Source of the DNA: Gemmata obscuriglobus
GTDB lineage: Bacteria > Planctomycetota > Planctomycetia > Gemmatales > Gemmataceae
Assembly (NCBI RefSeq): GCF_008065095.1
Contig: NZ_CP042911.1
Coordinates: 1,350,001-1,382,000 of the forward strand
DNA: 32,000 bases
Direction: 5' to 3'
The position numbers were made by a program, and so were the translations under genes. The notes under the pieces were generated by a model, which was not told where the DNA came from, searched no databases, and saw only the letters and a list, made by a program, of their open reading frames with translations. Below, one piece after another: positions 788 through 27,264 of this stretch. Positions within the stretch are counted from its first letter, which is position 1. Every line of letters begins with the position of its first letter.

Positions 788-1122
788 TTCTGCGCTGGCA
801 TGTGCGGTTCCGCGGAGCCCGCGCTTGCACCGCGCATCCGCGGAGCCACCACCGACCCGCACCACCATGCCGCGGCACACCGGGGGCCACCCACCACGGC
901 ACCGCGCGGCGATGAGCCGCGCCGCCCACCGACCGGTATCGGCGGAGCACCACCGATTCGACGCGCCGTGTCCCCACGCGCCTCCGCCCACGCCCAACCG
1001 CACCTCGCGGCGATGAGCCGCGCCAGACACGACCGGCACCACGCGGAGCACCACACGCGAGGTTCACCCATGCGGACCACACGCTCAGCGCCGCCGCACG
1101 CGCGCTCCAGAACGCGAGGGTG
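788..1122 (-). repeat. ORF-less R-type cassette (2 modules)
   Basis: C-rich/T-poor + strand, conserved head and tail, two cgcggcgaYgagccgcg hairpin modules; 335 bp. Confidence 0.7.
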
Positions 1123-1213
1123 GCCGAACAAATAGCTCACCTGCACCGCCATCATCGGATGAGCGGCGGGGTCCGAATCACATGGCGGTGTCAGGTGCAG
1201 CGCCGGGTTCGGC
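1123..1213 (-). repeat. attC: integron attC site
   Basis: R boxes + bulged L stem; 91 bp; identical to 3573-3663. Confidence 0.85.
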
Positions 1214-1480
1214 TTCTTGCGGCGCCTCTGCCAGACCGCGCATCTGGTATCGACGAGGCCCCTCGACGGTGACCGCGGCCCCGCCTTCGCAGATGACATG
1301 CGTGCCGTAGGCCGACTCGACAACCGTCAGCGACGGCACCGCGTCCAACCCGACAGCGGTAACGACGCACTCCTCGCCGGGTCGAAGGGCGACGCTGAAG
1401 TCGCTTGGGACGACCTCCACTAACCGGTCGGCCCCGCTGTCAGCGTCGTTGCACACACACAGGCGAACGACGAGGCTCAT
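1178..1480 (-). CDS. hypothetical cassette protein (100 aa)
   Basis: ATG at 1480, 18 nt from attC R box; no own stop, ends inside attC (tail AEPGAAPDTAM); identical copy 3628-3930. Confidence 0.65.
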   Translation of the reverse strand: MSLVVRLCVCNDADSGADRLVEVVPSDFSVALRPGEECVVTAVGLDAVPSLTVVESAYGTHVICEGGAAVTVEGPRRYQMRGLAEAPQEAEPGAAPDTAM

Positions 1481-1498
1481 CCGATGCGTCCCTCTGGT

Positions 1499-1589
1499 GC
1501 CGAACAATGAGCTCACCTGCACCGCCACCTCCAAGGGAGCGGTGCGTCCCACGTCAGATGGCGGTGTCAGGTGCAGCGCCGGGTTCGGC
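1499..1589 (-). repeat. attC: integron attC site
   Basis: R boxes + bulged L stem; 91 bp. Confidence 0.85.
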
Positions 1590-1596
1590 GCCTGGG

Positions 1597-1950
1597 CTAC
1601 TTCCCTGGGGCAACGATGTCGAGTACCCGCTGGACCGGAACCCCGAGTTGCCGCGCCCGGCTGAGGGCGAACGGCACGACGTAGTACGCGGAATCGGAGT
1701 CGAACGGGTCCACGGCCGCCGTCTCGTTGTACAGGGTCTTGAGGCAGATCTCCTCGAAGGCGTACTGCCCCTGCCGCAACCGGTCCGAGGTGCCGAGCCA
1801 GCGGCGTCGCACCTCGTCGAATAGGCGGTGGGCGGCCGGCCACTGCTTGGGGTCGGCCGCGAGCGCCACCACCCGTGCGGCGGACTCGGGATCGGGAGCG
1901 TGCGGCGCGAACAGCCGCAGGAACGCCACGATGTCTTCCGCCATCCCCAC
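1597..1950 (-). CDS. hypothetical cassette protein (117 aa)
   Basis: AAGGAGGG 7 nt upstream of GTG at 1950; own stop before attC; balanced composition. Confidence 0.7.
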   Translation of the reverse strand: MGMAEDIVAFLRLFAPHAPDPESAARVVALAADPKQWPAAHRLFDEVRRRWLGTSDRLRQGQYAFEEICLKTLYNETAAVDPFDSDSAYYVVPFALSRARQLGVPVQRVLDIVAPGK

Positions 1951-1966
1951 CCCGAAGCCCTCCTTA

Positions 1967-2056
1967 GCCGAACGAACAGCTCACCTGCACCGCCATCACC
2001 GGATGAGCGGTGCGTCCAAGTCAGCGGGCGGTGTCAGGTGCAGCGCCGGGTTCGGC
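1967..2056 (-). repeat. attC: integron attC site
   Basis: R boxes + bulged L stem; 90 bp. Confidence 0.85.
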
Positions 2057-2440
2057 GGCTTCGCGCTGGGAGTCTGGACTGAACCGACTGCCTCCCGCCC
2101 ACCACTCACGGAACTGAGGCGGTACAACGTTGGGCGGTTGACCGGAGGCGGCTCCCGGGCACGGTGCTTGGTTCTGAACCACGATGATACCCACGGCGCG
2201 AAAGGAGAGGAACTCCGTCGTGGCCCAGTTCCGGGATGACCGAAAGATGCCCGCCTGTCTGGTGACCCAGACTTGAACGCTCGGACCGCCCAACCCGTTC
2301 CACCGCAACCCACGCCCGACCGCGGGCGGTTCGTCAAACACTTGACACTCGTTGGGCTCCAGGCCCAGTGCCACCAGCACTTCGCCGACCGTTCGCCCGA
2401 CGAGCAAACCACAGTCTCGGGTCAGGAGGTGTTTCGACAT
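2021..2440 (-). CDS. hypothetical cassette protein (139 aa)
   Basis: ATG at 2440 (MSKHLLTRDCG...); reads into attC, tail AEPGAAPDTAR. Confidence 0.6.
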   Translation of the reverse strand: MSKHLLTRDCGLLVGRTVGEVLVALGLEPNECQVFDEPPAVGRGLRWNGLGGPSVQVWVTRQAGIFRSSRNWATTEFLSFRAVGIIVVQNQAPCPGAASGQPPNVVPPQFREWWAGGSRFSPDSQREAAEPGAAPDTAR

Positions 2441-2461
2441 TCGCCGCGCGCCCCTCTGGTT

Positions 2462-2552
2462 GCCGAACAAACAGCTCACCTGCACCGCCATCACCGGATG
2501 AGCGGAGCGTGCCGAATCAGCCGGCGGTGTCAGGTGCAGCGCCGGGTTCGGC
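2462..2552 (-). repeat. attC: integron attC site
   Basis: R boxes + bulged L stem; 91 bp. Confidence 0.85.
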
Positions 2553-2559
2553 TCGCTAC

Positions 2560-3048
2560 TTACACGGTGAAGATTACAGCCCGGTCGTGCGCGGCCGCTT
2601 TGTTGAAGAACTCCCGCAGTGGCACGAACCAGCCCCAAGTGTACTCGAAGTCCTCGTCGCCGAGGGCGCCGTCGTACTGGTCTGGCTCGATGGCATCGTA
2701 CCGCCGCCGCAGCTCCGCTTTGTCGATGCCTGCGATGGCAGCCGCAACCTGCTTGACCTCGTTGGCGTCGGCGTGGCAGACGGTGAATCGGTCCTCGTCC
2801 ACGAGGAGATTGTCGTGGGCGAAGACGCACATGTGTAGCGGGCTGTCGCCGTACTCCAGTTTGCCGCCGGTGAGGCAGCGGTGGATGGCGTCCCACGCCT
2901 TATCCGTTTCCTGAAGCCACTCCCGATCCCACCGGGCCTCGATCTCCTCCACGAAGGCGATGATCGCGTCGTCGGTCATGTATGGCGTGTCCATCAGCCG
3001 GGACGACTCCTCAGCCGTCAACGCGAGGTGGACACCACGCACGCCCAT
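2560..3048 (-). CDS. hypothetical cassette protein (162 aa), possibly DUF1877/YfbM-like
   Basis: ATG 3048 with GGAGG 8 nt upstream; own stop; acidic protein. Family guess rests only on the motif KAWDAIHRCLTGG and is low confidence. Confidence 0.65.
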   Translation of the reverse strand: MGVRGVHLALTAEESSRLMDTPYMTDDAIIAFVEEIEARWDREWLQETDKAWDAIHRCLTGGKLEYGDSPLHMCVFAHDNLLVDEDRFTVCHADANEVKQVAAAIAGIDKAELRRRYDAIEPDQYDGALGDEDFEYTWGWFVPLREFFNKAAAHDRAVIFTV

Positions 3049-3063
3049 CCGCGAACCTCCGGT

Positions 3064-3154
3064 GCCGAACAAACAGCTCACCTGCACCGCCATCATCGGA
3101 TGAGCGATGCGTCCCGAATCAGCCGGCGGTGTCAGGTGCAGCGCCGGGTTCGGC
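3064..3154 (-). repeat. attC: integron attC site
   Basis: R boxes + bulged L stem; 91 bp. Confidence 0.85.
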
Positions 3155-3556
3155 CTGCCTTGCGCCCTCCAGCAGTGACAGCGCCTTGCGGTTGTTGTAC
3201 GCCCGCGCGGACTCGAACGCCCGCTCGGTCGGGATCGCGCCGGCTGCCAGCAGCAGGGCGGTCAGCTCGGTGGACTCGTGCCCGGCCTCGTGGTTTGCTT
3301 GCCACGCAGCGTCGCTCTCGATGTCGATGGCGTGAACCAGTGGGGTCCAACCCGCGCCCACGTCACAGTTGATATCGGCCCCGGCTGCGATCAGCCGGCG
3401 TGCGATCTCCGTTCGTTGGTGCTCGATGGCTTGGAACAGCAGAGGCCAGTGCGGTTCGTCGGCCGCGTTGACATCGGCACCCGCCGCAATAATCGCTGCG
3501 ACTGTCGCGAGGTCATCGGCCCAGATGGCTTCCGACAGCCGTTGAGCCTTCGCCAC
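3119..3556 (-). CDS. ankyrin-repeat cassette protein (145 aa)
   Basis: repeats ...AAGADVNAADEPHWPLLFQAIEH... and ...AAGADINCDVGAGWTPLVHAI...; GTG start after AGAAGGG; ends in attC (AEPGAAPDTAG). Confidence 0.8.
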   Translation of the reverse strand: MAKAQRLSEAIWADDLATVAAIIAAGADVNAADEPHWPLLFQAIEHQRTEIARRLIAAGADINCDVGAGWTPLVHAIDIESDAAWQANHEAGHESTELTALLLAAGAIPTERAFESARAYNNRKALSLLEGARQAEPGAAPDTAG

Positions 3557-3572
3557 GGTGCGCCCTTCTGTG

Positions 3573-3663
3573 GCCGAACAAATAGCTCACCTGCACCGCC
3601 ATCATCGGATGAGCGGCGGGGTCCGAATCACATGGCGGTGTCAGGTGCAGCGCCGGGTTCGGC
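3573..3663 (-). repeat. attC: integron attC site
   Basis: R boxes + bulged L stem; 91 bp; identical to 1123-1213. Confidence 0.85.
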
Positions 3664-3930
3664 TTCTTGCGGCGCCTCTGCCAGACCGCGCATCTGGTAT
3701 CGACGAGGCCCCTCGACGGTGACCGCGGCCCCGCCTTCGCAGATGACATGCGTGCCGTAGGCCGACTCGACAACCGTCAGCGACGGCACCGCGTCCAACC
3801 CGACAGCGGTAACGACGCACTCCTCGCCGGGTCGAAGGGCGACGCTGAAGTCGCTTGGGACGACCTCCACTAACCGGTCGGCCCCGCTGTCAGCGTCGTT
3901 GCACACACACAGGCGAACGACGAGGCTCAT
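3628..3930 (-). CDS. hypothetical cassette protein (100 aa), second copy of 1178-1480
   Basis: translation identical to 1178-1480. Confidence 0.65.
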   Translation of the reverse strand: MSLVVRLCVCNDADSGADRLVEVVPSDFSVALRPGEECVVTAVGLDAVPSLTVVESAYGTHVICEGGAAVTVEGPRRYQMRGLAEAPQEAEPGAAPDTAM

Positions 3931-3948
3931 CCGATGCGTCCCTCTGGT

Positions 3949-4047
3949 GCCGAACGCACAAGCTCAGCAGCCGGGGCCGCCGCGGTGAGCTATGAACTCC
4001 CAGAAACCAATGTGGCGGCCCCGGTCTGCTGCAGCGCCTGGTTCGGC
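3949..4047 (-). repeat. attC: integron attC site, divergent 99-bp variant
   Basis: same R boxes; L arms gctcagcagccggggccgcc / ggcggccccggTctgctgCagc changed compensatorily; bulged T and C kept. Confidence 0.8.
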
Positions 4048-4056
4048 GTCTGCGGC

Positions 4057-4455
4057 TCACGGCACCACCGCGAACCGGAACCGGACGCCGGCCCGCTCCG
4101 CGTCGGCCAGCTCGCCGGCCAACCCCTCCAGCTCCGACGCCACCTCGGGCGGACCGGACACGGCGTCCGGGTGGGCGGCCAGGTGGGCCGCCAGCGCCCG
4201 GACCGCGGCCAGCCCGGCGGCCGCCGGGAACCACCGGACCGGCGGCAGGTCGGCCGGCGGCTCGTCCCCCTCGCCTAGGTAGCCGGCGGCGTCCGCCGGG
4301 TCGTAGCTCTCGAACGCCCCGAGCGGGGTCAGGCCGGCGGCGGCCGCCAGCCGGTCGAGCCGCCGCTGCCGGCGGAGCAGCGCCGGGTGGTCGCCGCCGA
4401 GGGTGCCGTGCGGGGGCACGTCGGCCTCGAACACGGCGCAGAAGCTCGCACCCAT
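4057..4455 (-). CDS. hypothetical cassette protein (132 aa)
   Basis: ATG 4455, 17 nt from attC; own stop; very GC-rich but acidic, balanced protein. Confidence 0.6.
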   Translation of the reverse strand: MGASFCAVFEADVPPHGTLGGDHPALLRRQRRLDRLAAAAGLTPLGAFESYDPADAAGYLGEGDEPPADLPPVRWFPAAAGLAAVRALAAHLAAHPDAVSGPPEVASELEGLAGELADAERAGVRFRFAVVP

Positions 4456-4471
4456 CGGACGCCTCTCCGCC

Positions 4472-4562
4472 GCCGAACATAAAGCTCACCTGCACCGCCA
4501 TCATACCGTCAGCAACGCGTCACAAATCAGCGGGCGGTGTCAGGTGCAGCGCCGGGTTCGGC
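4472..4562 (-). repeat. attC: integron attC site
   Basis: R boxes + bulged L stem; 91 bp. Confidence 0.85.
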
Positions 4563-4579
4563 ATCTGCGCAGCCCCCAG

Positions 4580-5011
4580 CTACCCGCCGTTGACCTCGGC
4601 CGCCACGACCCGACCATCCGGGCCGAAGTGAACGTACAGGAAGGCGTCGTCGAAGCCGTATGGGCCGAGGCCGCTCCAGCATCCCAGCCAGTACACCCAC
4701 GTCTCCGGGTGGTCCAGTCGAACGCCGTACCCGTCCACCGGCCCCCGCGGGTCACGCGACGGTGGCTCGCCCTCGCCCAGCAGTTCCCGCACACGCTCTT
4801 TGGGCGTCCCAGCGGGCAGGTGGCGGATGGCGTCACGGGCCATCGGCCCCCGCCCCCGCTCGTCGGCGGCCGCCCACGCCGCCGGGCTGAATGGGCGGTC
4901 GTCGAACGGGTCGAGATACCGGTCGAGCGCGACGAACCCGGCCACGCACCCGCGGGCCAACAGCAACGCGGCCAGGGCGAGCAAGCCGACGACACACTTC
5001 CACCGCCGCAT
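4580..5011 (-). CDS. exported or membrane-anchored small cassette protein (143 aa)
   Basis: N-terminal MRRWKCVVGLLALAALLLARGC hydrophobic signal-like segment; ATG 5011 after AGAGG; own stop. Confidence 0.7.
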   Translation of the reverse strand: MRRWKCVVGLLALAALLLARGCVAGFVALDRYLDPFDDRPFSPAAWAAADERGRGPMARDAIRHLPAGTPKERVRELLGEGEPPSRDPRGPVDGYGVRLDHPETWVYWLGCWSGLGPYGFDDAFLYVHFGPDGRVVAAEVNGG

Positions 5012-5028
5012 CTCGCACTGCCTCTGTT

Positions 5029-5118
5029 GCCGAACAATGAGCTCACCTGCACCGCCCGTCTCGATGAGCAGTGCGTTCCGAATCAGCCGGCGGTGTCAGG
5101 TGCAGCGCCGGGTTCGGC
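5029..5118 (-). repeat. attC: integron attC site
   Basis: R boxes + bulged L stem; 90 bp; same as 18328-18417 except the R'-side spacer (aatga vs ataaa). Confidence 0.85.
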
Positions 5119-5613
5119 GTCTTGGCCAACTGCAACCGTGAACGCCGCGTGCATCTCCTCGGCCAAGTTCACCAGCGGACGCCATTGCTCCGGCCAGTCG
5201 GACCACCATTGGAACCGCCATCCGGAGTACAAGTCCCCGTTCACCGCTAACTCGTACAACGTGCCGTCGGCCCCGCCGTACCCGCTCAAGTCCGGGCAAA
5301 GCGGGAGGGTGAGGGCGGTGACACGCTCGAAGTACGCGGCGACTGCGGTCGACGGCAGCGGCACCACGTCGTGCCCGGTCACCAACAGCGCCGGCTCCGA
5401 CGAGACGACCCGCGGCCGGATCAGTTGCCACTCCTGGCCGCGCTGGGCACCCCACACCTGCCGCACGTCCTACACTGACGGCATCTCGAACGACGGGGAG
5501 ACAATGAGCTGCAGCCGCCGCATACCGATGCCGCGTGCGTGCGGGTCGCTGTACGCTGGTCGCGGCTGGGTGCGAACCCGCGCCCAGTCGGCCTCGTCGG
5601 CCTGCCGCAGCAT
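5083..5613 (-). pseudogene. cassette gene disrupted by in-frame TAG (intact copy at 18382-18912)
   Basis: cta at 5470-5472 (TAG on minus) where the second copy has cca (Trp) at 18769-18771; otherwise the same ORF. Confidence 0.65.
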
Positions 5614-5658
5614 TAGCTCTCGCGCCCGGCGATTCCCCACCCGTCGTGCCCTCTGGTT

Positions 5659-5749
5659 GCCGAACGAACAGCTCACCTGCACCGCCATCACCGGATGAGC
5701 GGTGCGTCCCGAATCAGCGGGCGGTGTCAGGTGCAGCGCCGGGTTCGGC
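5659..5749 (-). repeat. attC: integron attC site
   Basis: R boxes + bulged L stem; 91 bp; identical to 243-333. Confidence 0.85.
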
Positions 5750-5757
5750 GCCTGCGG

Positions 5758-6096
5758 CTAGAAAGGCAGGTCATCCGGTCCAGGCGGGGGCGTGACCTCG
5801 GCCGCCGGCTCGGACGGCCCCGGCCCGAGTACCCGCACCGTCACCTCGTCTCCGGGGGCGAGCGGTGCGTGGGTCCACCGCATCTCCCCAGCCGCGTCGT
5901 CATGGGCGAACACGGCCAGCACCAGCGACTCGCCCCCGTTGTCACCATCGTAGTCAGTGACCGGACGCAGCAGGCGCAATGGGGCGAGCCGGCAGTACTG
6001 CACTTGGGCGTTCAGGCAGCCGTCGCCGGCCTGCCCGGCGAGGCACACCCGCCGACCGTTGACCAGCACCTCGAACCGCACCACCGCCTCCGCCAC
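5758..6096 (-). CDS. hypothetical cassette protein (112 aa), second copy of 342-680
   Basis: translation identical to 342-680. Confidence 0.65.
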   Translation of the reverse strand: MAEAVVRFEVLVNGRRVCLAGQAGDGCLNAQVQYCRLAPLRLLRPVTDYDGDNGGESLVLAVFAHDDAAGEMRWTHAPLAPGDEVTVRVLGPGPSEPAAEVTPPPGPDDLPF

Positions 6097-6113
6097 ACCG
6101 GTGCCCTCTGCGT

Positions 6114-6203
6114 GCCGAACAACAAGCTCACCTGCACCGCCAGGATACAGTGAGCGACACAACTATGGCCGATGGCGGTGTCAGGTGCAGCGCCGGGTTC
6201 GGC
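6114..6203 (-). repeat. attC: integron attC site
   Basis: R boxes + bulged L stem; 90 bp; identical to 19289-19378. Confidence 0.85.
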
Positions 6204-6662
6204 TCACTGACCTCCGCGGTTCCGGGCGACACGCGCCGCACCGCGGCTCCGCGGAGCCCGTGCCACCGGTGCGGCCGGGCGGAGCACCCCCAACCCGATG
6301 CGCCGTGTCGCGACACATCGGAGGCCACCCACCACCGCCACCCGCGGCGATGAGCCGCGCCCGCCACCTACGGGCGCCACGCGGAGCACCACCGACACGA
6401 ACCGCCGTGTCCCCACCCGCGCCCGGCCACGCCCAACCACACCTCGCGGCGGCGAGCCGCGCCAGACCCGATCGGCACCACGCGGAGCGCCACCGAACCG
6501 ACACGCCGTGTCCGCACCCGCCACCGGCCGCGCCCACCGCACCTCGCGGCGACGAGCCGCGCCACACACCCACGGGCACCACGCGGAGCCCGACCCTCGG
6601 GATTCACCTTTGCGGACCATACGTTCAGCGCCGCCGCACGCGCGATCGAGCGCCTTGGGGTT
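6204..6662 (-). repeat. ORF-less R-type cassette (3 modules)
   Basis: three ~101-nt modules; hairpins e.g. 6394-6411 and 6445-6461; 459 bp; largely identical to 19379-19785. Confidence 0.7.
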
Positions 6663-6753
6663 GCCGAACGAACAGCTCACCTGCACCGCCATCACACGAT
6701 GAGCGGTGCGTCACAATACAGCGGGCGGTGTCAGGTGCAGCGCCGGGTTCGGC
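6663..6753 (-). repeat. attC: integron attC site
   Basis: R boxes + bulged L stem; 91 bp; same as 12681-12771 and 24567-24657. Confidence 0.85.
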
Positions 6754-7109
6754 TCGCTGCCGTCCGCGGTTCCGGGCGACACGCCGAGCGCCGCGCATCT
6801 GCGGATGCCCGCGGCACCGGTGCGACCGGGCGGAGTGCTACCGACTCGATGCGCCGTGTCCCGGCCCATCGAGGGCCACGCCCACCGCTACACGCGGCGA
6901 CGAGCCGCGCCCCTACCCACGGGCACCACGCGGAGCGCCACCGACCCGAACCGCCGTGTCCCCACACACCGCCGGCCACGCCCAACCGCACCTCGCGGCG
7001 ACGAGCCGCGCCAGCACCGACCGGCACCACGCGAAGCCCGACACGCGAGACTCACCACCGCGGACCACACGCTCAGCGCCGCCGCACGCGCCCTCATGCC
7101 CTCGGGGTT
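6754..7109 (-). repeat. ORF-less R-type cassette (2 modules), copy 1 of 3
   Basis: 356 bp; same cassette at 12772-13127 and 24658-25013. Confidence 0.7.
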
Positions 7110-7200
7110 GCCGAACGAACAGCTCACCTGCACCGCCCCCTCCCAGGGAGCGGTGCCATCCAGACTACATGGCGGTGTCAGGTGCAGCGCCGGGTTCGGC
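7110..7200 (-). repeat. attC: integron attC site
   Basis: R boxes + bulged L stem; 91 bp. Confidence 0.85.
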
Positions 7201-8523: not shown

Positions 8524-8528
8524 GTGCC

Positions 8529-19256: not shown

Positions 19257-19288
19257 CCACGCCTCCGCGAGCCGAGGGGCCTTCCGCC

Positions 19289-20786: not shown

Positions 20787-20877
20787 GCCGAACATAAAGC
20801 TCACCTGCACCGCCATCATACAGTGAGCAACAGAACGCAGATTCGATGGCGGTGTCAGGTGCAGCGCCGGGTTCGGC
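20787..20877 (-). repeat. attC: integron attC site
   Basis: R boxes + bulged L stem; 91 bp. Confidence 0.85.
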
Positions 20878-21233: not shown

Positions 21234-21324
21234 GCCGAACGAACAGCTCACCTGCACCGCCATCATCGGATGAGCGATGCGTCCCGGAACAGCGGGCGGT
21301 GTCAGGTGCAGCGCCGGGTTCGGC
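21234..21324 (-). repeat. attC: integron attC site
   Basis: R boxes + bulged L stem; 91 bp. Confidence 0.85.
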
Positions 21325-21682
21325 TCGCTGACCTCCGCGGTTCCGGGCCATGCGCCGAGCTACGCGGATCCGCGGCGCCCGTGCCACCGGTGCGGCCGAG
21401 CGGAGCCACCGCCGACCCGATGCGCCGTGTCGCGGCCCACCGCCGGCCACCCACCACCGCACCTCGCGGCGATGAGCCGCGCCGGCCACCCACGGGCACC
21501 ACGCGGAGCACCACCGACCCGCACCACCGTGTCCTCACACACCAAGGGCCACCCCAACCGCACCTCGCGGCGGCGAGCCGCGCCCGCCCCGATCGGCACC
21601 ACGCGGAGCCCGACCCGCGGGCGTCACCCACGCGGACCACACGCACACCGCCACCGCACGCGCGCTCATGCGGCTTGGGGTG
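21325..21682 (-). repeat. ORF-less R-type cassette (2 modules)
   Basis: 358 bp; conserved head/tail and module hairpins. Confidence 0.7.
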
Positions 21683-21773
21683 GCCGAACATTGAGCTCAC
21701 CTGCACCGCGCCCTCCAAGGGAGCGATGCCATCCAAACTACATGGCGGTGTCAGGTGCAGCGCCGGGTTCGGC
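21683..21773 (-). repeat. attC: integron attC site
   Basis: R boxes + bulged L stem; 91 bp. Confidence 0.85.
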
Positions 21774-21784
21774 GGCCTTGCGCC

Positions 21785-21869
21785 GGGACCACAGCCGCCG
21801 CGCCACGGCGGCGGTGCTGCGACGCGACACCAATCACGCGGTTGGGTCCGGTGCAGTGTCGGGTTCGGC
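21785..21869 (-). repeat. degenerate (relic) attC lacking a recognisable R' half
   Basis: ggtccggtgcagtgtcgggttcggc (R''/L'' arm) and loop gcgacgcgacacc resemble the 15896/25014 attC subtype; no GCCGAAC partner. Confidence 0.5.
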
Positions 21870-22151
21870 CGGCTTGCGCCACTTGCGGACCACAGTGGCC
21901 TTACGAGCCCGCTTGGACGCCTTACGAGCGGCCTGCTTGGTAGCCAAAGTGGCGTCGGCCTCCGCCTCCGTCGGGATCGTCCGTTCGGTGACGATCGCGT
22001 GCCAGCCGCCGCAGTCCGGGAGCGTGCAACCGCACACGATCCCGACGACCGGATGGCGGGTCAGCCCCTCACGACGTCGGCGCGCGTTCGTCCGGTGCTC
22101 GCTCTTGACGAGGTCGATGATGGCGTCTCGTTTCATGAGCTTACCAGCCAT
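21834..22151 (-). CDS. hypothetical basic cassette protein (105 aa)
   Basis: ATG 22151, 21 nt from attC; ends inside the relic attC with tail AEPDTAPDPTA. Confidence 0.55.
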   Translation of the reverse strand: MAGKLMKRDAIIDLVKSEHRTNARRRREGLTRHPVVGIVCGCTLPDCGGWHAIVTERTIPTEAEADATLATKQAARKASKRARKATVVRKWRKPAEPDTAPDPTA

Positions 22152-22172
22152 CGCGCCCCCTGTGCCTCTCTC

Positions 22173-22263
22173 GCCGAACATAAAGCTCACCTGCACCGCC
22201 ATGATGCAGGATGCGGTGAGTCCCGAATCAGCGGGCGGTGTCAGGTGCAGCGCCGGGTTCGGC
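22173..22263 (-). repeat. attC: integron attC site
   Basis: R boxes + bulged L stem; 91 bp. Confidence 0.85.
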
Positions 22264-22821
22264 CTCTTGTGTGTCGATGACGCCCTCGGTCGGGTGATAC
22301 GCATACCGGCCAGATTCTAGGGCTGTTGCGTACTGCTCCAACCACGCGGCAAACCCACTGGCAACCACCCGCACGGGTCCAACCTCGTGATCGAACCAAA
22401 TGATCTGCCCAACCTTCCCACCCGGTGCGGGGTCCAAATCGACACAGAAGTGATTGCCCGACCCCGCATCGGTGACCGGGAGCCACTGTGAGTTCCAGTG
22501 GACTGGCTTGATTGGCCCTTCTGGTTCGGAACCCATTTCTGCGAACCAACCCTCAGCCGCCACTTCTTGCCATCGTAACCACTCGCCTTCGATGGCCTGA
22601 ATCGTCGCTAGCGCACCGCCACCATGTGGGAACATCCACAAGCCCCAGCTCCCATCGTGGACTTTGTACGACTGCTCCATCTCCGGCGGAAGTCGAAGGC
22701 CGGTCGCGTCCTCCAAGTGGTTGATGTGACGGTTCGATGCTGCTGGTCGAATACCCGCTAGTTCTTCCGGCGCATGTTGTTGGAGCCACGCTTCGATTCT
22801 TCTCCACGCCGCCTCTACCAC
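22228..22821 (-). CDS. SMI1/KNR4 (SUKH) family cassette protein (197 aa)
   Basis: WRRIEAWLQQHAPE...LRLPPEMEQSYKVHDG...GNHFCVDLDP...GQIIWFDHE pattern typical of SMI1/KNR4; GTG 22821; ends in attC. Confidence 0.8.
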   Translation of the reverse strand: MVEAAWRRIEAWLQQHAPEELAGIRPAASNRHINHLEDATGLRLPPEMEQSYKVHDGSWGLWMFPHGGGALATIQAIEGEWLRWQEVAAEGWFAEMGSEPEGPIKPVHWNSQWLPVTDAGSGNHFCVDLDPAPGGKVGQIIWFDHEVGPVRVVASGFAAWLEQYATALESGRYAYHPTEGVIDTQEAEPGAAPDTAR

Positions 22822-22837
22822 CGCGCGCCCTCGGGTT

Positions 22838-22928
22838 GCCGAACGAACAGCTCACCTGCACCGCCATCACCGGATGAGCGATGCGTCCCAGAACAGATGG
22901 CGGTGTTAGGTGCAGCGCCGGGTTCGGC
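22838..22928 (-). repeat. attC: integron attC site
   Basis: R boxes + bulged L stem (ggtgttaggtg variant); 91 bp. Confidence 0.85.
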
Positions 22929-22935
22929 AAAATAC

Positions 22936-23325
22936 CTACACTTCGCGCAAGGTGCTCGCGTCTGCGTGCCACCGTAAGTCGGATGCGCCCGGCCACTCCC
23001 CGACCGCCTCTTCTAGGATGGGATGAACCACCGCCGCAACGGCCGGCGAGTCCAACTGCTTGCAATGGGCGTCGTTGAGGACAATGAACCACCGGTTCGG
23101 GCGGAAGCCGCATAACACGAGGACTACCACGAACTCCTGGTCTTGACCTCGAGCGAGGAACTCCCAGTCCTGCATACCAACATACTGGCACGCTTCAAAG
23201 TCGATCTCGTAACCGCGCGCTTCAAGTACCGCAGCCAACCGCTGGGAAAGGGCGTCCGCCGCTGGCGACCACTCGGAGACGTTGTCTCGCTCGGCCGTCC
23301 GAAATGAGAGGAATCGCTGCCCCAT
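22936..23325 (-). CDS. hypothetical cassette protein (129 aa) in an AT-richer cassette
   Basis: ATG 23325; own stop; normal composition; visibly lower GC than neighbours. Confidence 0.7.
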   Translation of the reverse strand: MGQRFLSFRTAERDNVSEWSPAADALSQRLAAVLEARGYEIDFEACQYVGMQDWEFLARGQDQEFVVVLVLCGFRPNRWFIVLNDAHCKQLDSPAVAAVVHPILEEAVGEWPGASDLRWHADASTLREV

Positions 23326-23344
23326 CCGAGCGCCGCCCTCCGCC

Positions 23345-23435
23345 GCCGAACATAAAGCTCACCTGCACCGCGACGTCCCGAGCCGCGATGCGTCCCGAAT
23401 CAGCGGGCGGTGTCAGGTGCAGCGCCGGGTTCGGC
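23345..23435 (-). repeat. attC: integron attC site
   Basis: R boxes + bulged L stem; 91 bp. Confidence 0.85.
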
Positions 23436-23670
23436 GCGCTGCCGTCCGCGGTTCGCTTCTGCGCCCTTGCGCACGCGGCTGTGCGGAACCCGCGCCGGCG
23501 CCGCGCATCCGCCGTGCCCGAGACCGCGACGCGCGCGGTGCCGTGCGGCCCGCCGCTGCATCTCAACCAGGGCCGCGGCGACACCCGCCACCTCGTGCGA
23601 CACAACCGTCTACCGTTATGCGGACCACACGCCTACCGCCGCCGCACGCGCATTCATGCACGCGATGGTT
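23436..23670 (-). repeat. short, degenerate R-type cassette (about 1 module)
   Basis: 235 bp; R-type head (gctgccgtccgcggtt) and tail (gcggaccacacgcc...gcacgcgc...) but divergent middle. Confidence 0.55.
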
Positions 23671-23761
23671 GCCGAACATGAAGCTCACCTGCACCGCCAC
23701 CACCGGATGAGCGGTGCGTCCCGAATCCGCGGGCGGTGTCAGGTGCAGCGCCGGGTTCGGC
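23671..23761 (-). repeat. attC: integron attC site
   Basis: R boxes + bulged L stem; 91 bp. Confidence 0.85.
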
Positions 23762-24117
23762 TCGCACGCCTCCGCGGTTCCGGGCGACACGCCGAGCTTG
23801 GCGCATCCGCGAAGCCCGCGCACCCGATGCGGCCGGGCGGAGCACTACCGAGCCCGTGCATCGTGTCGCGGCTCACCGGAGGCCACGCCCAACCGCACCT
23901 CGCGGCGCCGAGCCGCGCCCGCGACCACCGGCACCACGCGGAGCACCACCGACCCGAAACGCCGTGTTCCCACGCGCCCACGGCCACGACCACCCGCACC
24001 TCGCGGCGACGAGCCGCGCCAGCACCGACCGGCACCACGCGGAGCCCGACGCGCGAGGTTCACCCACGCGGACCACACGCCACCGCCGCCGCACGCGCGC
24101 TCATGCACGCGAGGGTT
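23762..24117 (-). repeat. ORF-less R-type cassette (2 modules)
   Basis: 356 bp; conserved head/tail and module hairpins. Confidence 0.7.
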
Positions 24118-24208
24118 GCCGAACATAAAGCTCACCTGCACCGCCATCACCGGATGAGCGGTGCGTCACAAGTCAGCGGGCGGTGTCAGGTGCAGCGCCG
24201 GGTTCGGC
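24118..24208 (-). repeat. attC: integron attC site
   Basis: R boxes + bulged L stem; 91 bp; identical to 11783-11873. Confidence 0.85.
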
Positions 24209-24566
24209 TCGCACGCCTCCGCGGTTCCGGGCGACACGCCCCGCGCCGCGCATCCGCGGAAGCCCGCCCACCGTCGCATCCGCGGAGCCACCACCGACAC
24301 CCCCCACCGTGTCGCGGCACACCGAGGGCCACCCACCACCGCACCTCGCGGCGATGAGCCGCGCCGACCACCCACGCGCACCACGCGGAGCACCACCCAC
24401 CCGCATCACCGTGCCGCCGCACACCGGAGGCCACGACCAACCGCACCTCGCGGCGATGAGCCGCGCCCGTCGCACTCGGGCACCACGCGGAGCCCGACCC
24501 GCGGGGTTCACCCACGCGGACCACACCGTCAGCGCTGCCGCACCCGCGATCGAGCGCCTCGGGGTT
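24209..24566 (-). repeat. ORF-less R-type cassette (2 modules)
   Basis: 358 bp; head identical to 11874-~11948. Confidence 0.7.
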
Positions 24567-24657
24567 GCCGAACGAACAGCTCACCTGCACCGCCATCACA
24601 CGATGAGCGGTGCGTCACAATACAGCGGGCGGTGTCAGGTGCAGCGCCGGGTTCGGC
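24567..24657 (-). repeat. attC: integron attC site
   Basis: R boxes + bulged L stem; 91 bp. Confidence 0.85.
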
Positions 24658-25013
24658 TCGCTGCCGTCCGCGGTTCCGGGCGACACGCCGAGCGCCGCGC
24701 ATCTGCGGATGCCCGCGGCACCGGTGCGACCGGGCGGAGTGCTACCGACTCGATGCGCCGTGTCCCGGCCCATCGAGGGCCACGCCCACCGCTACACGCG
24801 GCGACGAGCCGCGCCCCTACCCACGGGCACCACGCGGAGCGCCACCGACCCGAACCGCCGTGTCCCCACACACCGCCGGCCACGCCCAACCGCACCTCGC
24901 GGCGACGAGCCGCGCCAGCACCGACCGGCACCACGCGAAGCCCGACACGCGAGACTCACCACCGCGGACCACACGCTCAGCGCCGCCGCACGCGCCCTCA
25001 TGCCCTCGGGGTT
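24658..25013 (-). repeat. ORF-less R-type cassette (2 modules), copy 3 of 3
   Basis: 356 bp; same as 6754-7109. Confidence 0.7.
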
Positions 25014-25104
25014 GCCGAACGAACAGCTCACCTGCCGCGGGGCACCGCGACACGGTCCAGAAACAACGCACTATACCGCGGTCAGGTGCAGCGCCGGGTT
25101 CGGC
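25014..25104 (-). repeat. attC: integron attC site, L-box variant
   Basis: L arms gctcacctgccgcgg / ccgcggtcaggtgcagc; loop gcaccgcgacacggtc; 91 bp. Confidence 0.8.
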
Positions 25105-25108
25105 TCGC

Positions 25109-25477
25109 TCACCCGGGCATCCAGTCGGCAACGCCCTCGCGGACGGCCCACTCGGCGGCGGTATACCCGAACTCGGACCGGATGTTCGCTCGCGCCCCGG
25201 CCCGCACCAGCACCGCCACCATCGGCCGGTCCAGAAGCCGGAGTGCGACGTGCAACGGGGTGTCACCCATGTCCCCAGTCGCGTCCACGTCCGCCCCGGC
25301 CGCGATTAGGACGGCCGCACCGGCCGCGTCCCGCCGCCAGGCCAAGACGTGCAGCGGGGTGTCACCGTCTGCCCCATGACTGTCGAGGGCGACGGCACGC
25401 TCGCCCGATTCGGCCGGGAACAGAACGTCGGACACCGATGCCAGAACCTCCGCCACGGCTCGTGGTGCCGACTCCAC
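25109..25477 (-). CDS. ankyrin-repeat cassette protein (122 aa)
   Basis: DGDTPLHVLAWRRDAAGAAVLIAAGADVDATGDMGDTPLHVALRLLDRPMVAVLVRAGA; GTG 25477 8 nt after AGAGGG (start uncertain). Confidence 0.75.
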   Translation of the reverse strand: MESAPRAVAEVLASVSDVLFPAESGERAVALDSHGADGDTPLHVLAWRRDAAGAAVLIAAGADVDATGDMGDTPLHVALRLLDRPMVAVLVRAGARANIRSEFGYTAAEWAVREGVADWMPG

Positions 25478-25495
25478 TCCGTGTGCCCTCTGGTT

Positions 25496-25586
25496 GCCGA
25501 ACAAAGAGCTCACCTGCACCGCCACCATCGGATGAGCGGTGCGTCCCAAGTCAGCCGGCGGTGTCAGGTGCAGCGCCGGGTTCGGC
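25496..25586 (-). repeat. attC: integron attC site
   Basis: R boxes + bulged L stem; 91 bp. Confidence 0.85.
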
Positions 25587-25593
25587 TCTGTCC

Positions 25594-25971
25594 TCAGCGC
25601 GGTCGGCGCATGACGACGAGAGTGCGTCCTCCGCTCGCGGTGTCCAAGCTCACGACCAGTTGAGCGTAGGCCGGGGCGCCCTGCAGCCGTACTTCTTCGA
25701 TCACTGTGCCGTCGTCGTCCTGTGCCCGACAGATCATCGACCCACCTGGCCCGAGACATGAACCGCCGGCAAGGGATTTGCGGTATGGTCCCGGCAATCG
25801 GGGCGGGGCCACGACCTCCCACCCATCGTATCCGGCCACGACGGCTTCCAGGGAGACGAACGGTCGCTCCTGTCGTGTGGCCGATTCCGCGTGCCGGCCC
25901 CAGGGTGACAGCCAATAACCGGCACACCCCGCACCGAGTAACACGACGACCACAAGCCACCGCACCCGCAT
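25594..25971 (-). CDS. putative exported protein or lipoprotein cassette protein (125 aa)
   Basis: MRVRWLVVVVLLGAGC signal-like N-terminus with Cys; ATG 25971 with GGAAGGGGG upstream; own stop. Confidence 0.7.
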   Translation of the reverse strand: MRVRWLVVVVLLGAGCAGYWLSPWGRHAESATRQERPFVSLEAVVAGYDGWEVVAPPRLPGPYRKSLAGGSCLGPGGSMICRAQDDDGTVIEEVRLQGAPAYAQLVVSLDTASGGRTLVVMRRPR

Positions 25972-25988
25972 CCGATCCCCCTTCCGGT

Positions 25989-26079
25989 GCCGAACGTAAA
26001 GCTCACCTGCACCGCCATCGCCGAGTGAGCGGTGCGTTCCAAGTCAGCGGGCGGTGTCAGGTGCAGCGCCGGGTTCGGC
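25989..26079 (-). repeat. attC: integron attC site
   Basis: R boxes + bulged L stem; 91 bp. Confidence 0.85.
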
Positions 26080-26412
26080 TCGCTCACGTCCGCGCCGCGC
26101 ATCCGCGGATGCCCGCGCCACCGATGCGGCCACGCGGAGCACCGCCGACCCGGAGCACCGTGTCGCCGCACGTCGGAGGCCACCCACCACCCCCACTCGC
26201 GGCGACGAGCCGCGCCGACCACCGACCGGTGTTGGCGGAGCGCAACCGACCCGAACCGCCGTGTCCCCACCCGCCGCCCGCCACGCCCAACCGCACCTCG
26301 CGGCGACGAGCCGCGCCCGCGCCCACCGGCACTCTGCGGAGCCCGACGCGCGGGGTTCACCCACGCGGACCACACGCACACCGCCGCACGGGCGCTCCAG
26401 CACGCGAGGGTT
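26080..26412 (-). repeat. ORF-less R-type cassette (2 modules)
   Basis: 333 bp; first ~100 nt the same as 26931-~27030. Confidence 0.7.
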
Positions 26413-26503
26413 GCCGAACAACAAGCTCACCTGCACCGCCATCACCGGATGAGCAGTGCGTCCCAAGTCAGCCGGCGATGTCAGGTGCAGCGCCGGGTTC
26501 GGC
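26413..26503 (-). repeat. attC: integron attC site
   Basis: R boxes + bulged L stem (ggcgatgtcaggtg variant); 91 bp. Confidence 0.85.
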
Positions 26504-26840
26504 TTCGTCGCTGGCCGTTGCGGTTCCGCGGAGCCCGCGCTCGTACCGCGCATCCGCGGAGCCACCACCGACCCGCACCACCGTGTCCCGGCCCACCGAG
26601 GGCCACCCACCACCGCACCTCGCGGCGATGAGCCGCGCCGACCACCGGCGGGCGCCACGCGGAGCACCACCGACCCGAACCGCCGTGTCCCCACGTGCCG
26701 CCAGCCACGACCACCCGCCACTCGCGGCGGCGAGCCGCGCCAGACCCGATCGGCACCACGCGGAGCCCGACCCGCGGGGCTCACCCACGCGGACCACACG
26801 CCCACCGCCGCCGCACGCGCGATCAAGCGCCCTTCTGGGT
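26504..26840 (-). repeat. ORF-less R-type cassette (2 modules)
   Basis: 337 bp; conserved head/tail and module hairpins. Confidence 0.7.
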
Positions 26841-26930
26841 GCCGAACATGCAGCTCACCTGCACTGCCAGGATGAAGTGAGCATGACAACGGTGGCCGAT
26901 GGCGGTGTCAGGTGCAGCGCCGGGTTCGGC
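26841..26930 (-). repeat. attC: integron attC site
   Basis: R boxes + bulged L stem; 90 bp. Confidence 0.85.
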
Positions 26931-27264
26931 TCGCTCACGTCCGCGCCGCGCATCCGCGGATGCCCGCGCCACCGATGCGGCCACGCGGAGCACCGCCGAC
27001 CCGGAGCACCGTGTCGCCGCACGTCGGAGGCCACACACCACCGACACCTCGCGGCGATGAGCCGCGCCGACAACCGACCGTATCGGCGGAGCACCACCGA
27101 TCCGACCCACCGTGTCCCACGGCACCACCGGCCACGCCCACCGCACGCTCGCGGCGGTGAGCCGCGCCACACACCCACGGGCACCACGCGGAGCCCGACG
27201 CGCGGGGTTCACCCACGCGGACCACACGCCCACCGCCGCACGCGCCCTCATGCGCGCGAGGGTT
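26931..27264 (-). repeat. ORF-less R-type cassette (2 modules), first cassette next to attI
   Basis: 334 bp; bounded by attC 26841-26930 and the lone GCCGAAC at 27265-27271. Confidence 0.7.

What the first reader, a model, noticed from the sequence alone, without database searches (positions are those of the whole stretch)
788..27264. Family of 24 ORF-less, modular, strand-skewed R-type cassettes makes up about 40% of the array
24 of the 57 complete cassettes have no credible ORF but share a common architecture. Each has a conserved head next to its attC, in two variants (gttcggcTTCTGCG... or gttcggcTCGCT...). This is followed by 1-3 tandem ~101-nt modules and a conserved tail (...gcggaccacacgc...gccgcacgcgc...ggggttgccgaac).

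Interior lengths are quantised: 235; 333-337; 356-358; 436; 455-459 bp. These correspond to one, two or three modules.

Each module carries small hairpins. Examples are cgcggc-gRYga-gccgcg at 6445-6461 and gacacg-aaccgc-cgtgtc at 6394-6411. Some positions covary: ctcgatg...catcgag at 6845-6873 versus ccgatg...catcgg at 6295-6321.

Composition is extreme. In the module at ~6380-6480 I count about 51 C, 27 G, 19 A and 4 T on the + strand. The cassette-sense strand is therefore G/T-rich and almost free of A. Module spacing is not always a multiple of 3: the same motif reads as AAMSRAR, TSRRRAA or PRGDEPR in successive units of one frame. That argues against a repeat protein.

Such a large, structured, amplifying non-coding cassette family could be a structured RNA, a single-strand DNA structure acting on integron recombination or replication, or a selfish cassette.
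Basis: seen in the sequence. Interest (0 to 1): 0.9.

Follow-up and report, generated by a model that had tools for sequence, protein, structure and literature searches.

The report
Gene-less repeat cassettes filling an integron
About 40% of this Gemmata obscuriglobus integron array consists of one old family of gene-less cassettes built from 101-base repeats; they are real, non-coding and copied by the integrase, but no test supports a folded RNA.

Summary
The window is the chromosomal integron of Gemmata obscuriglobus: intI, attI and 57 attC sites. Twenty-four of the 57 cassettes form one family (R), with a 73-nt leader, two or three 100-103-nt tandem modules, a 60-82-nt trailer and an ordinary attC.

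R cassettes are non-coding. Period-3 power is 0.8 against 7.4 in the other cassettes, and 29 of 33 indel blocks are not multiples of 3.

Their strand skew is real. The sense strand is G 47, C 30, T 16, A 7%, far beyond the skew at 4-fold degenerate sites of neighbouring genes.

The "structured RNA with covariation" reading fails every test run:
- no Rfam match
- folding energy no better than shuffles
- RNAalifold covariation term about -1 kcal/mol
- compensatory pairs no more frequent than in shuffles

What is conserved is a set of short one-strand motifs plus one invariant 6-bp GC hairpin per module.

Exact copies bounded by attC core sites show integrase-mediated copying. Mosaic identity blocks show recombination among R copies. 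The family is old (nearest paralogue about 84% identical) and was found only in G. obscuriglobus.

The closest precedent is the paralogous non-coding cassette families of Vibrio arrays. Function remains unknown. My best guess is self-propagating passenger cassettes with sequence-level cis constraints.

The parts
27429..28397 (-). intI, integron integrase gene (322 aa), in the same orientation as the cassettes ('inverted integrase' layout)
   Evidence: ORF. Matches TIGR02249 integron integrase at 427 bits against a cut-off of 265. The exact protein occurs in G. obscuriglobus CP025958.1, and the called cassette genes lie on the same strand.
27266..27428 (-). attI region between the intI stop codon and the first cassette. 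On the minus strand the junction reads ...CACACTAAACACTG|GTTCGGCAAC.
   Evidence: Sequence read. The homologous G. algarum contig ends exactly at this junction.
244..26930 (-). Cassette array with 57 attC sites (89-99 nt; on the + strand CCGAAC...GGTTCGGC). The window starts inside the array.
   Evidence: attC sites of R and non-R cassettes belong to the same family, with equal ssDNA folding energy (-26.5 vs -26.2 kcal/mol).
26931..27265 (-). R cassette interior, first cassette next to attI; 2 modules (26993-27091, 27093-27194)
   Evidence: P2 hairpins at 27050-27066 and 27150-27166. Folding z-score -0.68 as RNA sense strand, -1.31 as DNA bottom strand.
26504..26841 (-). R cassette interior, 2 modules
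26080..26413 (-). R cassette interior, 2 modules
24658..25014 (-). R cassette interior, 2 modules; identical to the copies at 6754 and 12772
24209..24567 (-). R cassette interior, 2 modules
23762..24118 (-). R cassette interior, 2 modules
23436..23671 (-). R-related cassette with no module; shares only the leader (~55 nt) and the last ~20 nt with the family
   Evidence: (no HMM hit; pairwise alignment)
21325..21683 (-). R cassette interior, 2 modules
20878..21234 (-). R cassette interior, 2 modules
20451..20787 (-). R cassette interior, 2 modules
19925..20361 (-). R cassette interior, 3 modules, short trailer
19379..19834 (-). R cassette interior, 3 modules; 97.8% identical to the copy at 6204 but with a different leader (mosaic)
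16541..16878 (-). R cassette interior, 2 modules
12772..13128 (-). R cassette interior, 2 modules; identical copy
12323..12681 (-). R cassette interior, 2 modules
11874..12232 (-). R cassette interior, 2 modules
10373..10709 (-). R cassette interior, 2 modules
9042..9399 (-). R cassette interior, 2 modules
8076..8433 (-). R cassette interior, 2 modules
7627..7985 (-). R cassette interior, 2 modules
7201..7536 (-). R cassette interior, 2 modules
6754..7110 (-). R cassette interior used as the anatomy example: leader 7038-7110, module A 6938-7037, module B 6838-6936, trailer 6754-6837 (read right to left on the sense strand)
   Evidence: P2 hairpins at 6893-6909 and 6994-7010.
6204..6663 (-). 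R cassette interior, 3 modules (6288-6387, 6389-6488, 6490-6589)
788..1123 (-). R cassette interior, 2 modules
6445..6461 (.). Example of the one invariant hairpin per module (P2): CGCGGC-5 nt-GCCGCG. The loop is UCRYC on the sense strand and GRYGA on the antisense strand.
   Evidence: There are 48 exact copies in the window, all inside R. Among 90 unique modules the stems are invariant and two loop positions vary.
26946..26959 (.). Example of the trailer hairpin CCGCG-GAUG-CGCGG (sense strand)
   Evidence: One of only four strictly Watson-Crick inverted repeats of at least 5 bp in the family consensus

Best explanation
The R elements are genuine integron cassettes that carry no gene. Each consists of a non-coding interior followed by an ordinary attC. 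The interior has a ~73-nt leader whose first ~16 nt match the generic cassette 5' end, two or three 100-103-nt tandem modules, and a 60-82-nt trailer.

Shown:
- They are not protein-coding.
- They are copied as exact cassette units, with identity ending at the attC core sites. This is the signature of integrase-mediated excision and reinsertion.
- They recombine with one another, giving mosaic copies.
- They form an old, strongly diversified family.
- They cluster in runs and occupy the three attI-proximal slots.
- They have been found only in G. obscuriglobus.
- What is conserved is a set of short motifs on one strand (GCUCCGC 4-6 times per cassette, GGGACACGG, UCGGUGGU) plus one invariant 6-bp GC hairpin per module. 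An extended fold is not conserved.

Inferred: they are self-propagating, low-cost passenger ('selfish') cassettes. They persist because the integrase keeps copying them and because recombination and gene conversion among many copies maintain them. Their conserved one-strand motifs act in cis on single-stranded nucleic acid, either the cassette strand exposed during recombination or replication, or the read-through transcript. They do not encode a discrete folded RNA.
For: Non-coding:
- Period-3 power has a median of 0.77 in 22 unique R cassettes against 7.4 in 29 other cassettes.
- 29 of 33 distinct indel blocks are not multiples of 3.
- The ATG in the leader is not conserved.

Cassette identity and mobility:
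- IntI matches TIGR02249.
- Identical R copies at 6754, 12772 and 24658, like the duplicated coding cassettes, are identical from one GCCGAAC core to the next.
- Identity blocks that end inside R leaders (at 6603 and 6610) show homologous exchange.

Age and diversity:
- Among 43 unique two-module copies the nearest-neighbour identity has a median of 84%.
- Recent exact duplicates are about as frequent among R cassettes as among coding cassettes.

Abundance: 53 of 118 unique cassettes in about 100 kb of G. obscuriglobus arrays are R.

Clustering: 18 runs against 28.8 expected, z = -2.96. The first three cassettes next to attI are R.

Motif-level conservation:
- 36 of about 101 module columns are at least 97% conserved in 91 unique modules, while other columns are near 50:50.
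- GCGGAGC occurs 75 times on the + strand inside R and only twice in the opposite orientation there.

Skew is not mutational: 4-fold degenerate sites of neighbouring genes have GC skew 0.04 and TA skew 0.04, against 0.21 and 0.37 in R.

No fold.

Precedent: Vibrio arrays are 6-49% non-coding cassettes, with a 45-copy paralogous family for which selfish or regulatory roles were proposed (PMC1382264).
Against: - A purely selfish element needs only a good attC. R attC sites are no different from the others in type or stability, and recent R duplication is not faster than that of coding cassettes. Nothing shown explains why R in particular accumulates.
- The fine alternation of invariant and variable blocks, and a strand skew well beyond the mutational background, point to selection on a single-strand function that I could not identify. 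That function could benefit the host rather than the element.
- Transcription, excision frequency and protein binding were not testable.
- The restriction to one species rests on searches in protein space and on one exact-pattern metagenome scan. The genome-collection scan was uninformative.
Confidence: 0.42

Rival explanations
1. R cassettes encode a non-coding RNA read from the cassette-sense strand. It would be G/U-rich and A-poor, and its repeated modules (the GCUCCGC motif plus a GC hairpin) would bind a protein or other RNAs. It could act as a sponge or regulator, or as a cis leader for downstream cassettes.
For: - The strand skew lies far beyond the local mutational background.
- The motifs are strictly one-stranded.
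- One hairpin has invariant stems and variable loop positions.
- R cassettes occupy the three attI-proximal slots, which are the most likely to be transcribed.
- Integron-encoded sRNAs are known (sRNA-Xcc1, cited in PMC8876359).
Against: - No Rfam hit even at E<=10.
- Mean MFE z-score is -0.24 on the sense strand and -0.70 on the antisense strand. The tool gives -0.68.
- The covariation term is -1.2 of -64 kcal/mol.
- Pairs changed on both sides number 3 against 3.5 and 2.7 in shuffles.
- Almost no pair reaches mean probability 0.4 across copies.
- In strictly Watson-Crick stems, G-U-type and A-C-type deviations are about equal, 36 against 29.
- No promoter or terminator consensus was found.
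- More than 50 diverged copies, most far from any known promoter, are not needed for a trans-acting RNA.
Confidence: 0.25
2. R cassettes are DNA-level elements that serve the array or the host. One version is GT-rich, Chi-like or RecA-preferred recombination hot spots ('minisatellite cassettes'). Other versions are binding-site arrays for a DNA-binding protein (17-bp palindrome CGCGGC-N5-GCCGCG), single-strand hairpins that modulate attC folding, or Rho-resistant spacers.
For: - The tandem repeats have a G/T-rich strand in a single orientation.
- Mosaic copies show that R cassettes do recombine.
- R cassettes cluster in runs.
- The palindrome has invariant arms and a variable spacer.
- The skew has the same sign as the array-wide GC skew.
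Against: - No Chi sequence is known for Gemmata, and no genome-wide motif count was possible.
- The bottom-strand DNA fold is not unusually stable (z = -1.31).
- attC stability is the same for R and non-R cassettes.
- G-quadruplex motifs are depleted (21 of 53 R cassettes against 90% of shuffles).
- Double-strand protein binding does not explain the strand skew.
Confidence: 0.18
3. R cassettes encode, or are decayed remnants of, a repeat protein on either strand.
For: Stop codons are rare in all six frames. Gene callers have annotated hypothetical proteins across R cassettes in G. obscuriglobus.
Against: - The scarcity of stops follows from the composition alone (77% G+C, 7% A on the sense strand).
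- There is no period-3 signal.
- Module lengths of 100-103 nt shift the reading frame.
- There are 25 distinct single-base indel blocks among the copies.
- The start codon is not conserved.
- The annotated 'proteins' have no Pfam domain and no relatives outside this species among 5.8 and 15 billion sequences.
Confidence: 0.02

Closest known systems
Paralogous non-coding cassette families of Vibrio chromosomal integrons (Boucher et al. 2006, PMC1382264)
   Same: Both are ORF-less cassettes with normal attC sites. Both are highly paralogous within one array (45 copies in V. vulnificus CMCP6) and make up as much as 49% of cassettes. Both are restricted to one lineage and conserved along their whole length. 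In both cases the function is unknown, with selfish or regulatory roles proposed.
   Different: The phylum differs (Planctomycetota), as does the integron layout, with intI co-oriented with the cassettes. The R interior is built from 2-3 tandem 101-nt modules, has 77% G+C and a strong G/T strand skew, and the copies are much more diverged (about 84% to the nearest paralogue). I did not see the sequence architecture of the Vibrio families, so whether they are modular is unknown.
Promoter-bearing ORF-less cassettes from Treponema and the oral metagenome (Tansirichaiya et al. 2019, cited in PMC8876359)
   Same: Both are ORF-less cassettes. That Treponema integrons share the 'inverted integrase' layout with this one is from my own knowledge, not from a tool result.
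   Different: Those cassettes carry sigma-70-like promoters. R cassettes have no promoter-like site (0 found) and are almost devoid of A+T.
sRNA-Xcc1, the integron-encoded trans-acting sRNA of Xanthomonas campestris (Chen et al. 2011, cited in PMC8876359)
   Same: A non-coding product from an integron cassette.
   Different: It is a single defined sRNA gene under HrpG/HrpX control. It is not a family of more than 50 copies with tandem modules. No R transcript has been shown.
Bacterial interspersed repeats with hairpins (REP/BIME/REPIN) and G-rich strand-asymmetric minisatellites (from general knowledge)
   Same: Both have short GC-rich palindromes embedded in modular, multi-copy non-coding repeats. 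Like minisatellites, R has a tandem period and a G/T-rich strand.
   Different: R units are delimited and mobilised by attC sites, not by a RAYT transposase. They are always co-oriented and were found only inside cassette arrays.

Membership tests
Integron gene cassette | Interior followed by a single attC whose inverse core (RYYYAAC) and core (GTTRRRY) sites pair, in the same orientation as the other cassettes | tested here: met
   Every R interior lies between two attC sites of the array's common 90-nt type (GCCGAAC...GTTCGGC). All 49 modules lie on the cassette-sense strand.
Integron gene cassette | Mobilised as a unit by site-specific recombination at the core sites | tested here: met
   The three identical R copies and several duplicated coding cassettes are identical exactly from one GCCGAAC core to the next. 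The recombination itself is inferred, not observed.
Complete integron | An IntI-type tyrosine recombinase next to attI and the array | tested here: met
   TIGR02249 at 427 bits against a cut-off of 265, PF13495 plus PF00589, and the attI junction read.
ORF-less (non-coding) cassette | No conserved reading frame: no codon periodicity, frame-breaking indels, no protein homologues | tested here: met
   Period-3 power 0.77 against 7.4. 29 of 33 indel blocks are not multiples of 3. Translations of both strands hit only G. obscuriglobus hypothetical ORFs lying over R cassettes.
Structured non-coding RNA family | A conserved secondary structure supported by compensatory changes | tested here: not met
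Covariation term -1.2 kcal/mol. Pairs changed on both sides: 3 against 3.5 in shuffles on 29 cassettes and 3 against 2.7 on 90 modules.
Structured non-coding RNA family | Folding more stable than composition-matched shuffles, and consistent across copies | tested here: not met
   Mean z-score -0.24 (sense) and -0.70 (antisense), with -0.68 and -1.31 from the tool. Mean pair probabilities reach 0.4 for only one hairpin.
Any described Rfam family | A match to a covariance model | tested here: not met
   0 hits at gathering score over the whole window. Only two chance-level hits at E<=10 over three R cassettes. No tRNA or tmRNA.
Tandem repeat (minisatellite-like) | Head-to-tail copies with a fixed period | tested here: met
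   TRF reports period 101-103, 1.9-2.6 copies and 77-85% matches. The HMM finds 2 or 3 adjacent modules per cassette.
G-quadruplex-forming element | Four or more G-runs of at least 3 with short loops, enriched over composition | tested here: not met
   The G3-N1-12 motif occurs in 21 of 53 R cassettes against 90% of shuffles. The maximum G4Hunter window is 1.49 against 2.08 in shuffles.
Promoter-bearing ORF-less cassette | A promoter inside the cassette | tested here: inconclusive
   No sigma-70-like site on either strand of 19000-28500. Planctomycete and ECF-type promoters are not covered by the scan.
Type III toxin-antitoxin repeat RNA (ToxI-like) | A tandem-repeat RNA immediately upstream of its toxin gene in one unit | tested here: not met
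   R cassettes contain no ORF, and their downstream neighbours are unrelated or are other R cassettes.

The most novel reading that the evidence does not exclude
R cassettes may be a new functional class of integron cargo: strand-specific arrays of short motifs that work as single-stranded nucleic acid. One version is a modular RNA that titrates a protein or Shine-Dalgarno-like sequences through its repeated GCUCCGC motif and hairpin units. The other is a set of GT-rich, Chi-like or RecA-loading modules that set recombination and stability along a very large cassette array. Either version would mean that integrons stockpile and amplify non-coding regulators of their own dynamics.
Probability: 0.2. 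Interest if true: 0.75.

Novelty: new member of a known kind. Interest (0 to 1): 0.42.

Why it matters
Chromosomal integrons are usually described as gene-capture devices. Here, as in some Vibrio arrays, close to half of the cassettes carry no gene at all.

The Gemmata family gives an unusually clean case for asking what such cassettes do:
- There are more than 50 diverged copies with sharply defined invariant motifs.
- The strand asymmetry cannot be put down to mutation bias.
- There is direct sequence evidence that the integrase copies them.

If the motifs have a function, in RNA or in recombination, it would be a new layer of integron biology. If they do not, the family is a measurable example of selfish DNA exploiting the integron.

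On the practical side, gene callers have annotated spurious 'hypothetical proteins' across these cassettes.

Tried and rejected
2. The metagenome scan with the specific two-motif pattern returned 15 loci, none containing R modules by nhmmer. The viral contig scan and plasmid BLAST found nothing.
3. The route through IntI homologues did not yield related arrays. The G. algarum contig ends at attI, and two JGI loci had no DNA available.
4. Rfam searches (gathering and E<=10) and ARAGORN found nothing.
5. Global and local RNAalifold on both strands, mutual information over 91 modules, averaged base-pair probabilities, and hand-built P1/P2/P3 hairpins were all tried. Only the invariant P2 hairpin survives. 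The top mutual-information pairs reflect module type (A versus B), not pairing.
6. A strand call from G-U-type versus A-C-type deviations gave no bias.
7. Derivation of the modules from attC is rejected: alignment scores are no better than shuffles.
8. Similarity of R parts to other cassettes is limited to the generic first ~16 nt.
9. The G-quadruplex idea is rejected.
10. A better attC as the cause of R abundance is rejected.
11. Mutational origin of the skew is rejected.
12. A conserved small ORF in the leader is rejected by inspection of the alignment.
13. CsrA-type GGA loops are rejected because the GGA is not conserved (module B has CGACAC or GGCAC).

Full report
WHAT THE WINDOW IS. The 322-aa ORF at 27429-28397 (minus strand) is an integron integrase. 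It matches TIGR02249 at 427 bits against a cut-off of 265. It is found with exactly this sequence in the Gemmata obscuriglobus chromosome CP025958.1. To its left lie an attI region (27266-27428) and 57 attC sites of one 90-nt type. All called cassette genes and intI lie on the same (minus) strand. This is therefore an 'inverted-integrase' chromosomal integron, and the cassette-sense strand is the window's minus strand. The window begins inside the array.

CHECK OF THE OBSERVATION. Twenty-four of the 57 complete cassettes belong to one family. A profile built from the repeat units finds 49 modules of 100-103 nt. All are on the sense strand and all are inside these cassettes. TRF independently gives period 101-103. 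R interiors are 31.7% of the array, or 39.7% with their attC sites.

Five details need correction:
- The 236-nt cassette has no module and shares only leader and trailer ends with the family.
- The 334-338 and 357-359 classes differ by a 22-nt trailer indel, not by module number.
- The cassette heads are more varied than two forms.
- The quoted 'covarying' helix is fully paired in only about 5 of 29 copies.
- The gacacg/cgtgtc hairpin is perfect in only a minority of modules.

ANATOMY (sense strand).
- The leader is about 73 nt. Its first ~16 nt resemble the 5' end of ordinary cassettes, including a GAGG-like stretch.
- Each module reads roughly GCUCCGC-GUGGUGCC-variable-GG-[CGCGGC-UCRYC-GCCGCG]-AGGUGCGGU..GGCC-variable-GGGACACGG-variable-CGGGUCGGUGGU.
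- The trailer is 60-82 nt and holds further GCUCCGC copies and a CCGCG-GAUG-CGCGG hairpin.
- In 91 unique modules, 36 columns are at least 97% conserved while others are split near 50:50.
- The complement of GCUCCGC occurs 75 times on the + strand inside R and only twice in the other orientation there.

NOT CODING. Period-3 power has a median of 0.77 in R against 7.4 in the 29 other unique cassettes. Among 29 aligned copies, 29 of 33 distinct indel blocks are not multiples of three, and 25 of them are single bases. The occasional ATG in the leader is not conserved. Stop codons are rare in all six frames, but that follows from 77% G+C. Translations of both strands hit only hypothetical ORFs of G. 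obscuriglobus that lie over R cassettes. This held in a 5.8-billion-protein word-indexed search and in a full HMMER scan of 1.84 billion cluster representatives.

NOT A DEMONSTRABLY FOLDED RNA OR ssDNA.
- There is no Rfam match at gathering score or at E<=10 and no tRNA-like gene.
- Folding energies are ordinary for the composition. Mean z-score is -0.24 (sense) and -0.70 (antisense) over 22 cassettes. The tool gives -0.68 for the sense RNA and -1.31 for the bottom-strand DNA.
- RNAalifold on 29 cassettes gives -64.3 kcal/mol, of which only -1.2 is covariation. With a 40-nt span limit the covariation term is 0.7 (sense) and 0.15 (antisense).
- On that structure, 3 pairs change on both sides against 3.5 in shuffles.
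- On 90 unique modules with three hand-built hairpins, the covariation score is 0.063 against 0.059 (58 of 500 shuffles reach it). P3 shows uncompensated breaks.
- Averaged base-pair probabilities reach 0.4 for only one hairpin on either strand.
- The top mutual-information pairs are module-type signatures, not complementary pairs.
- In stems defined by strict Watson-Crick pairing, G-U-type and A-C-type deviations are about equal (36 against 29), so no strand is favoured.

Only the P2 hairpin (CGCGGC-N5-GCCGCG) is truly conserved. Its stems are invariant and two loop positions are free. There are 48 exact copies in the window, none outside R.

THE SKEW IS REAL AND NOT MUTATIONAL. R sense strands are G 46.8, C 30.3, T 15.7, A 7.2%. 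Other cassettes on the same strand are G 37, C 30.8, T 16.6, A 15.6%. At 4-fold degenerate sites of the neighbouring genes, GC skew and TA skew are both 0.04, against 0.21 and 0.37 in R. So the asymmetry is a property of the family itself, which hints at a constraint acting on a single strand. It is not a G-quadruplex design, because G-runs are depleted relative to shuffles.

HOW THE FAMILY BEHAVES.
- Copying by the integrase: identical copies of an R cassette (6754, 12772, 24658) and of several coding cassettes are identical exactly from one attC core (GCCGAAC) to the next. This is the footprint of integrase-mediated copying.
- Recombination: some identity blocks end inside R leaders (6603, 6610), which shows homologous exchange between R copies.
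- Age: among 43 unique two-module copies, the nearest-neighbour identity has a median of 84%, and most pairs are 65-85% identical. Recent exact duplicates are about as frequent in R as in coding cassettes.
- Position: R cassettes cluster (18 runs against 28.8 expected, z = -2.96) and fill the three slots next to attI.
- attC sites: those of R cassettes are indistinguishable from the others.
- Abundance elsewhere in the genome: further array pieces from the draft assembly (L138, L139, L141, L143, L144) hold more R cassettes, always inside arrays and always in the same orientation. In total 53 of 118 unique cassettes are R. Locus tags of ORFs called over R cassettes are spread over several genome regions.

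DISTRIBUTION. Every hit in protein space is G. obscuriglobus. An exact two-motif scan of metagenomes gave only chance loci. Plasmids and viral contigs gave nothing. The genome-collection scan was uninformative because my pattern was too short. G. algarum has a 98% identical IntI, but its contig stops at attI. Absence from close relatives is therefore not established.

INTERPRETATION. It is shown that these are non-coding cassettes, mobilised by the integrase, recombining with each other, old, and conserved at the level of short motifs. It is inferred, at about 0.4, that they are self-propagating passenger cassettes whose motifs act in cis on single-stranded nucleic acid.

Against a purely selfish view, nothing distinguishes their attC sites or their recent copying rate. 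The block-wise conservation and the non-mutational skew also suggest a function I could not name.

The rivals are:
- a sense-strand RNA that works through repeated motifs rather than a fold (about 0.25)
- a DNA-level role, such as GT-rich recombination hot spot, protein-binding palindrome array, modulation of attC folding, or Rho-resistant spacer (about 0.18)
- coding (about 0.02)

COMPARISON WITH WHAT IS KNOWN. Non-coding cassettes are established. Vibrio arrays are 6-49% non-coding, with a 45-copy paralogous family in V. vulnificus. Those cassettes are lineage-restricted and conserved, and were proposed to be selfish or regulatory (PMC1382264). ORF-less cassettes with promoters (Treponema) and an integron sRNA (Xanthomonas) are also described (PMC8876359). 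The Gemmata R family is a new member of this kind in another phylum. It is distinguished by its tandem 101-nt modules, extreme composition and depth of divergence. I found no paper describing it.

VERDICT. The structured-RNA and covariation interpretation is not supported. The function is unresolved. Interest is moderate.

Noticed in passing
window 27266-28397: intI lies on the same strand as the cassettes, with its 3' end facing attI. This is the 'inverted integrase' layout, so read-through from intI could transcribe the first cassettes. The attI region carries repeated TTGTGCGA / GTTATTG(C/T)GC motifs.
   Followed up: partly
window 3950-4047, 13129-13218, 15897-15985, 25015-25104: Four attC sites differ from the array's common type. 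One is 98 nt long with different arms, and the other three have unrelated central regions. This suggests cassettes recruited from other attC pools.
   Followed up: no
window 334-698 = 5750-6114; 1214-1499 = 3664-3949; 9848-10282 = 17894-18328; 14097-14426 = 17474-17803: Coding cassettes are also present as exact duplicates bounded by attC core sites, so the integrase has recently been copying cassettes within the array.
   Followed up: yes
window 5461 versus 18760 (cassettes 5119-5659 and 18418-18958): The two copies differ at one base (T against C). In the 5119 copy the difference appears to create a stop codon on the sense strand, because the ORFs there end at about 5455-5466. That copy may be a fresh pseudogene.
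   Followed up: partly
R trailers, e.g. window 7627-7660 and 8076-8110: The 22-nt segment present only in the longer trailer class contains a core-site-like CCGGAAC / CCCGAAC (GGTTCGGG on the + strand), about 22 nt from the real attC core. It may be a vestige of an old recombination junction.
   Followed up: no
L138 892-1911; L141 6230-7387 and 11143-11934: IS elements (DDE_Tnp_1 and DDE_5 transposases) are inserted inside other pieces of the G. obscuriglobus cassette arrays.
   Followed up: no
L144 648-4224: Another cassette array of about 30 cassettes, roughly two-thirds of them R, starts about 1 kb downstream of a mutS gene. No integrase is called in the part of the contig fetched. It is either the distal end of the integron or a separate integrase-less array.
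   Followed up: partly
L140 10970-11534 (Gemmata algarum JC717): A 98% identical IntI is followed by what looks like two attI-like segments in tandem. The contig then breaks exactly at the attI/cassette junction.
   Followed up: partly
window 2560-3096 and 3119-3556 (minus strand): Most of the sampled coding cassettes encode proteins with no Pfam match. The two exceptions are a DUF1877 protein and an ankyrin-repeat protein. SMI1_KNR4 proteins recur in the other array pieces.
   Followed up: partly
window 28400-29550: A stretch of about 1.1 kb upstream of intI has lower G+C (about 60%) and no convincing ORF. The 378-aa ORF at 29247-30383 has no Pfam match.
   Followed up: no
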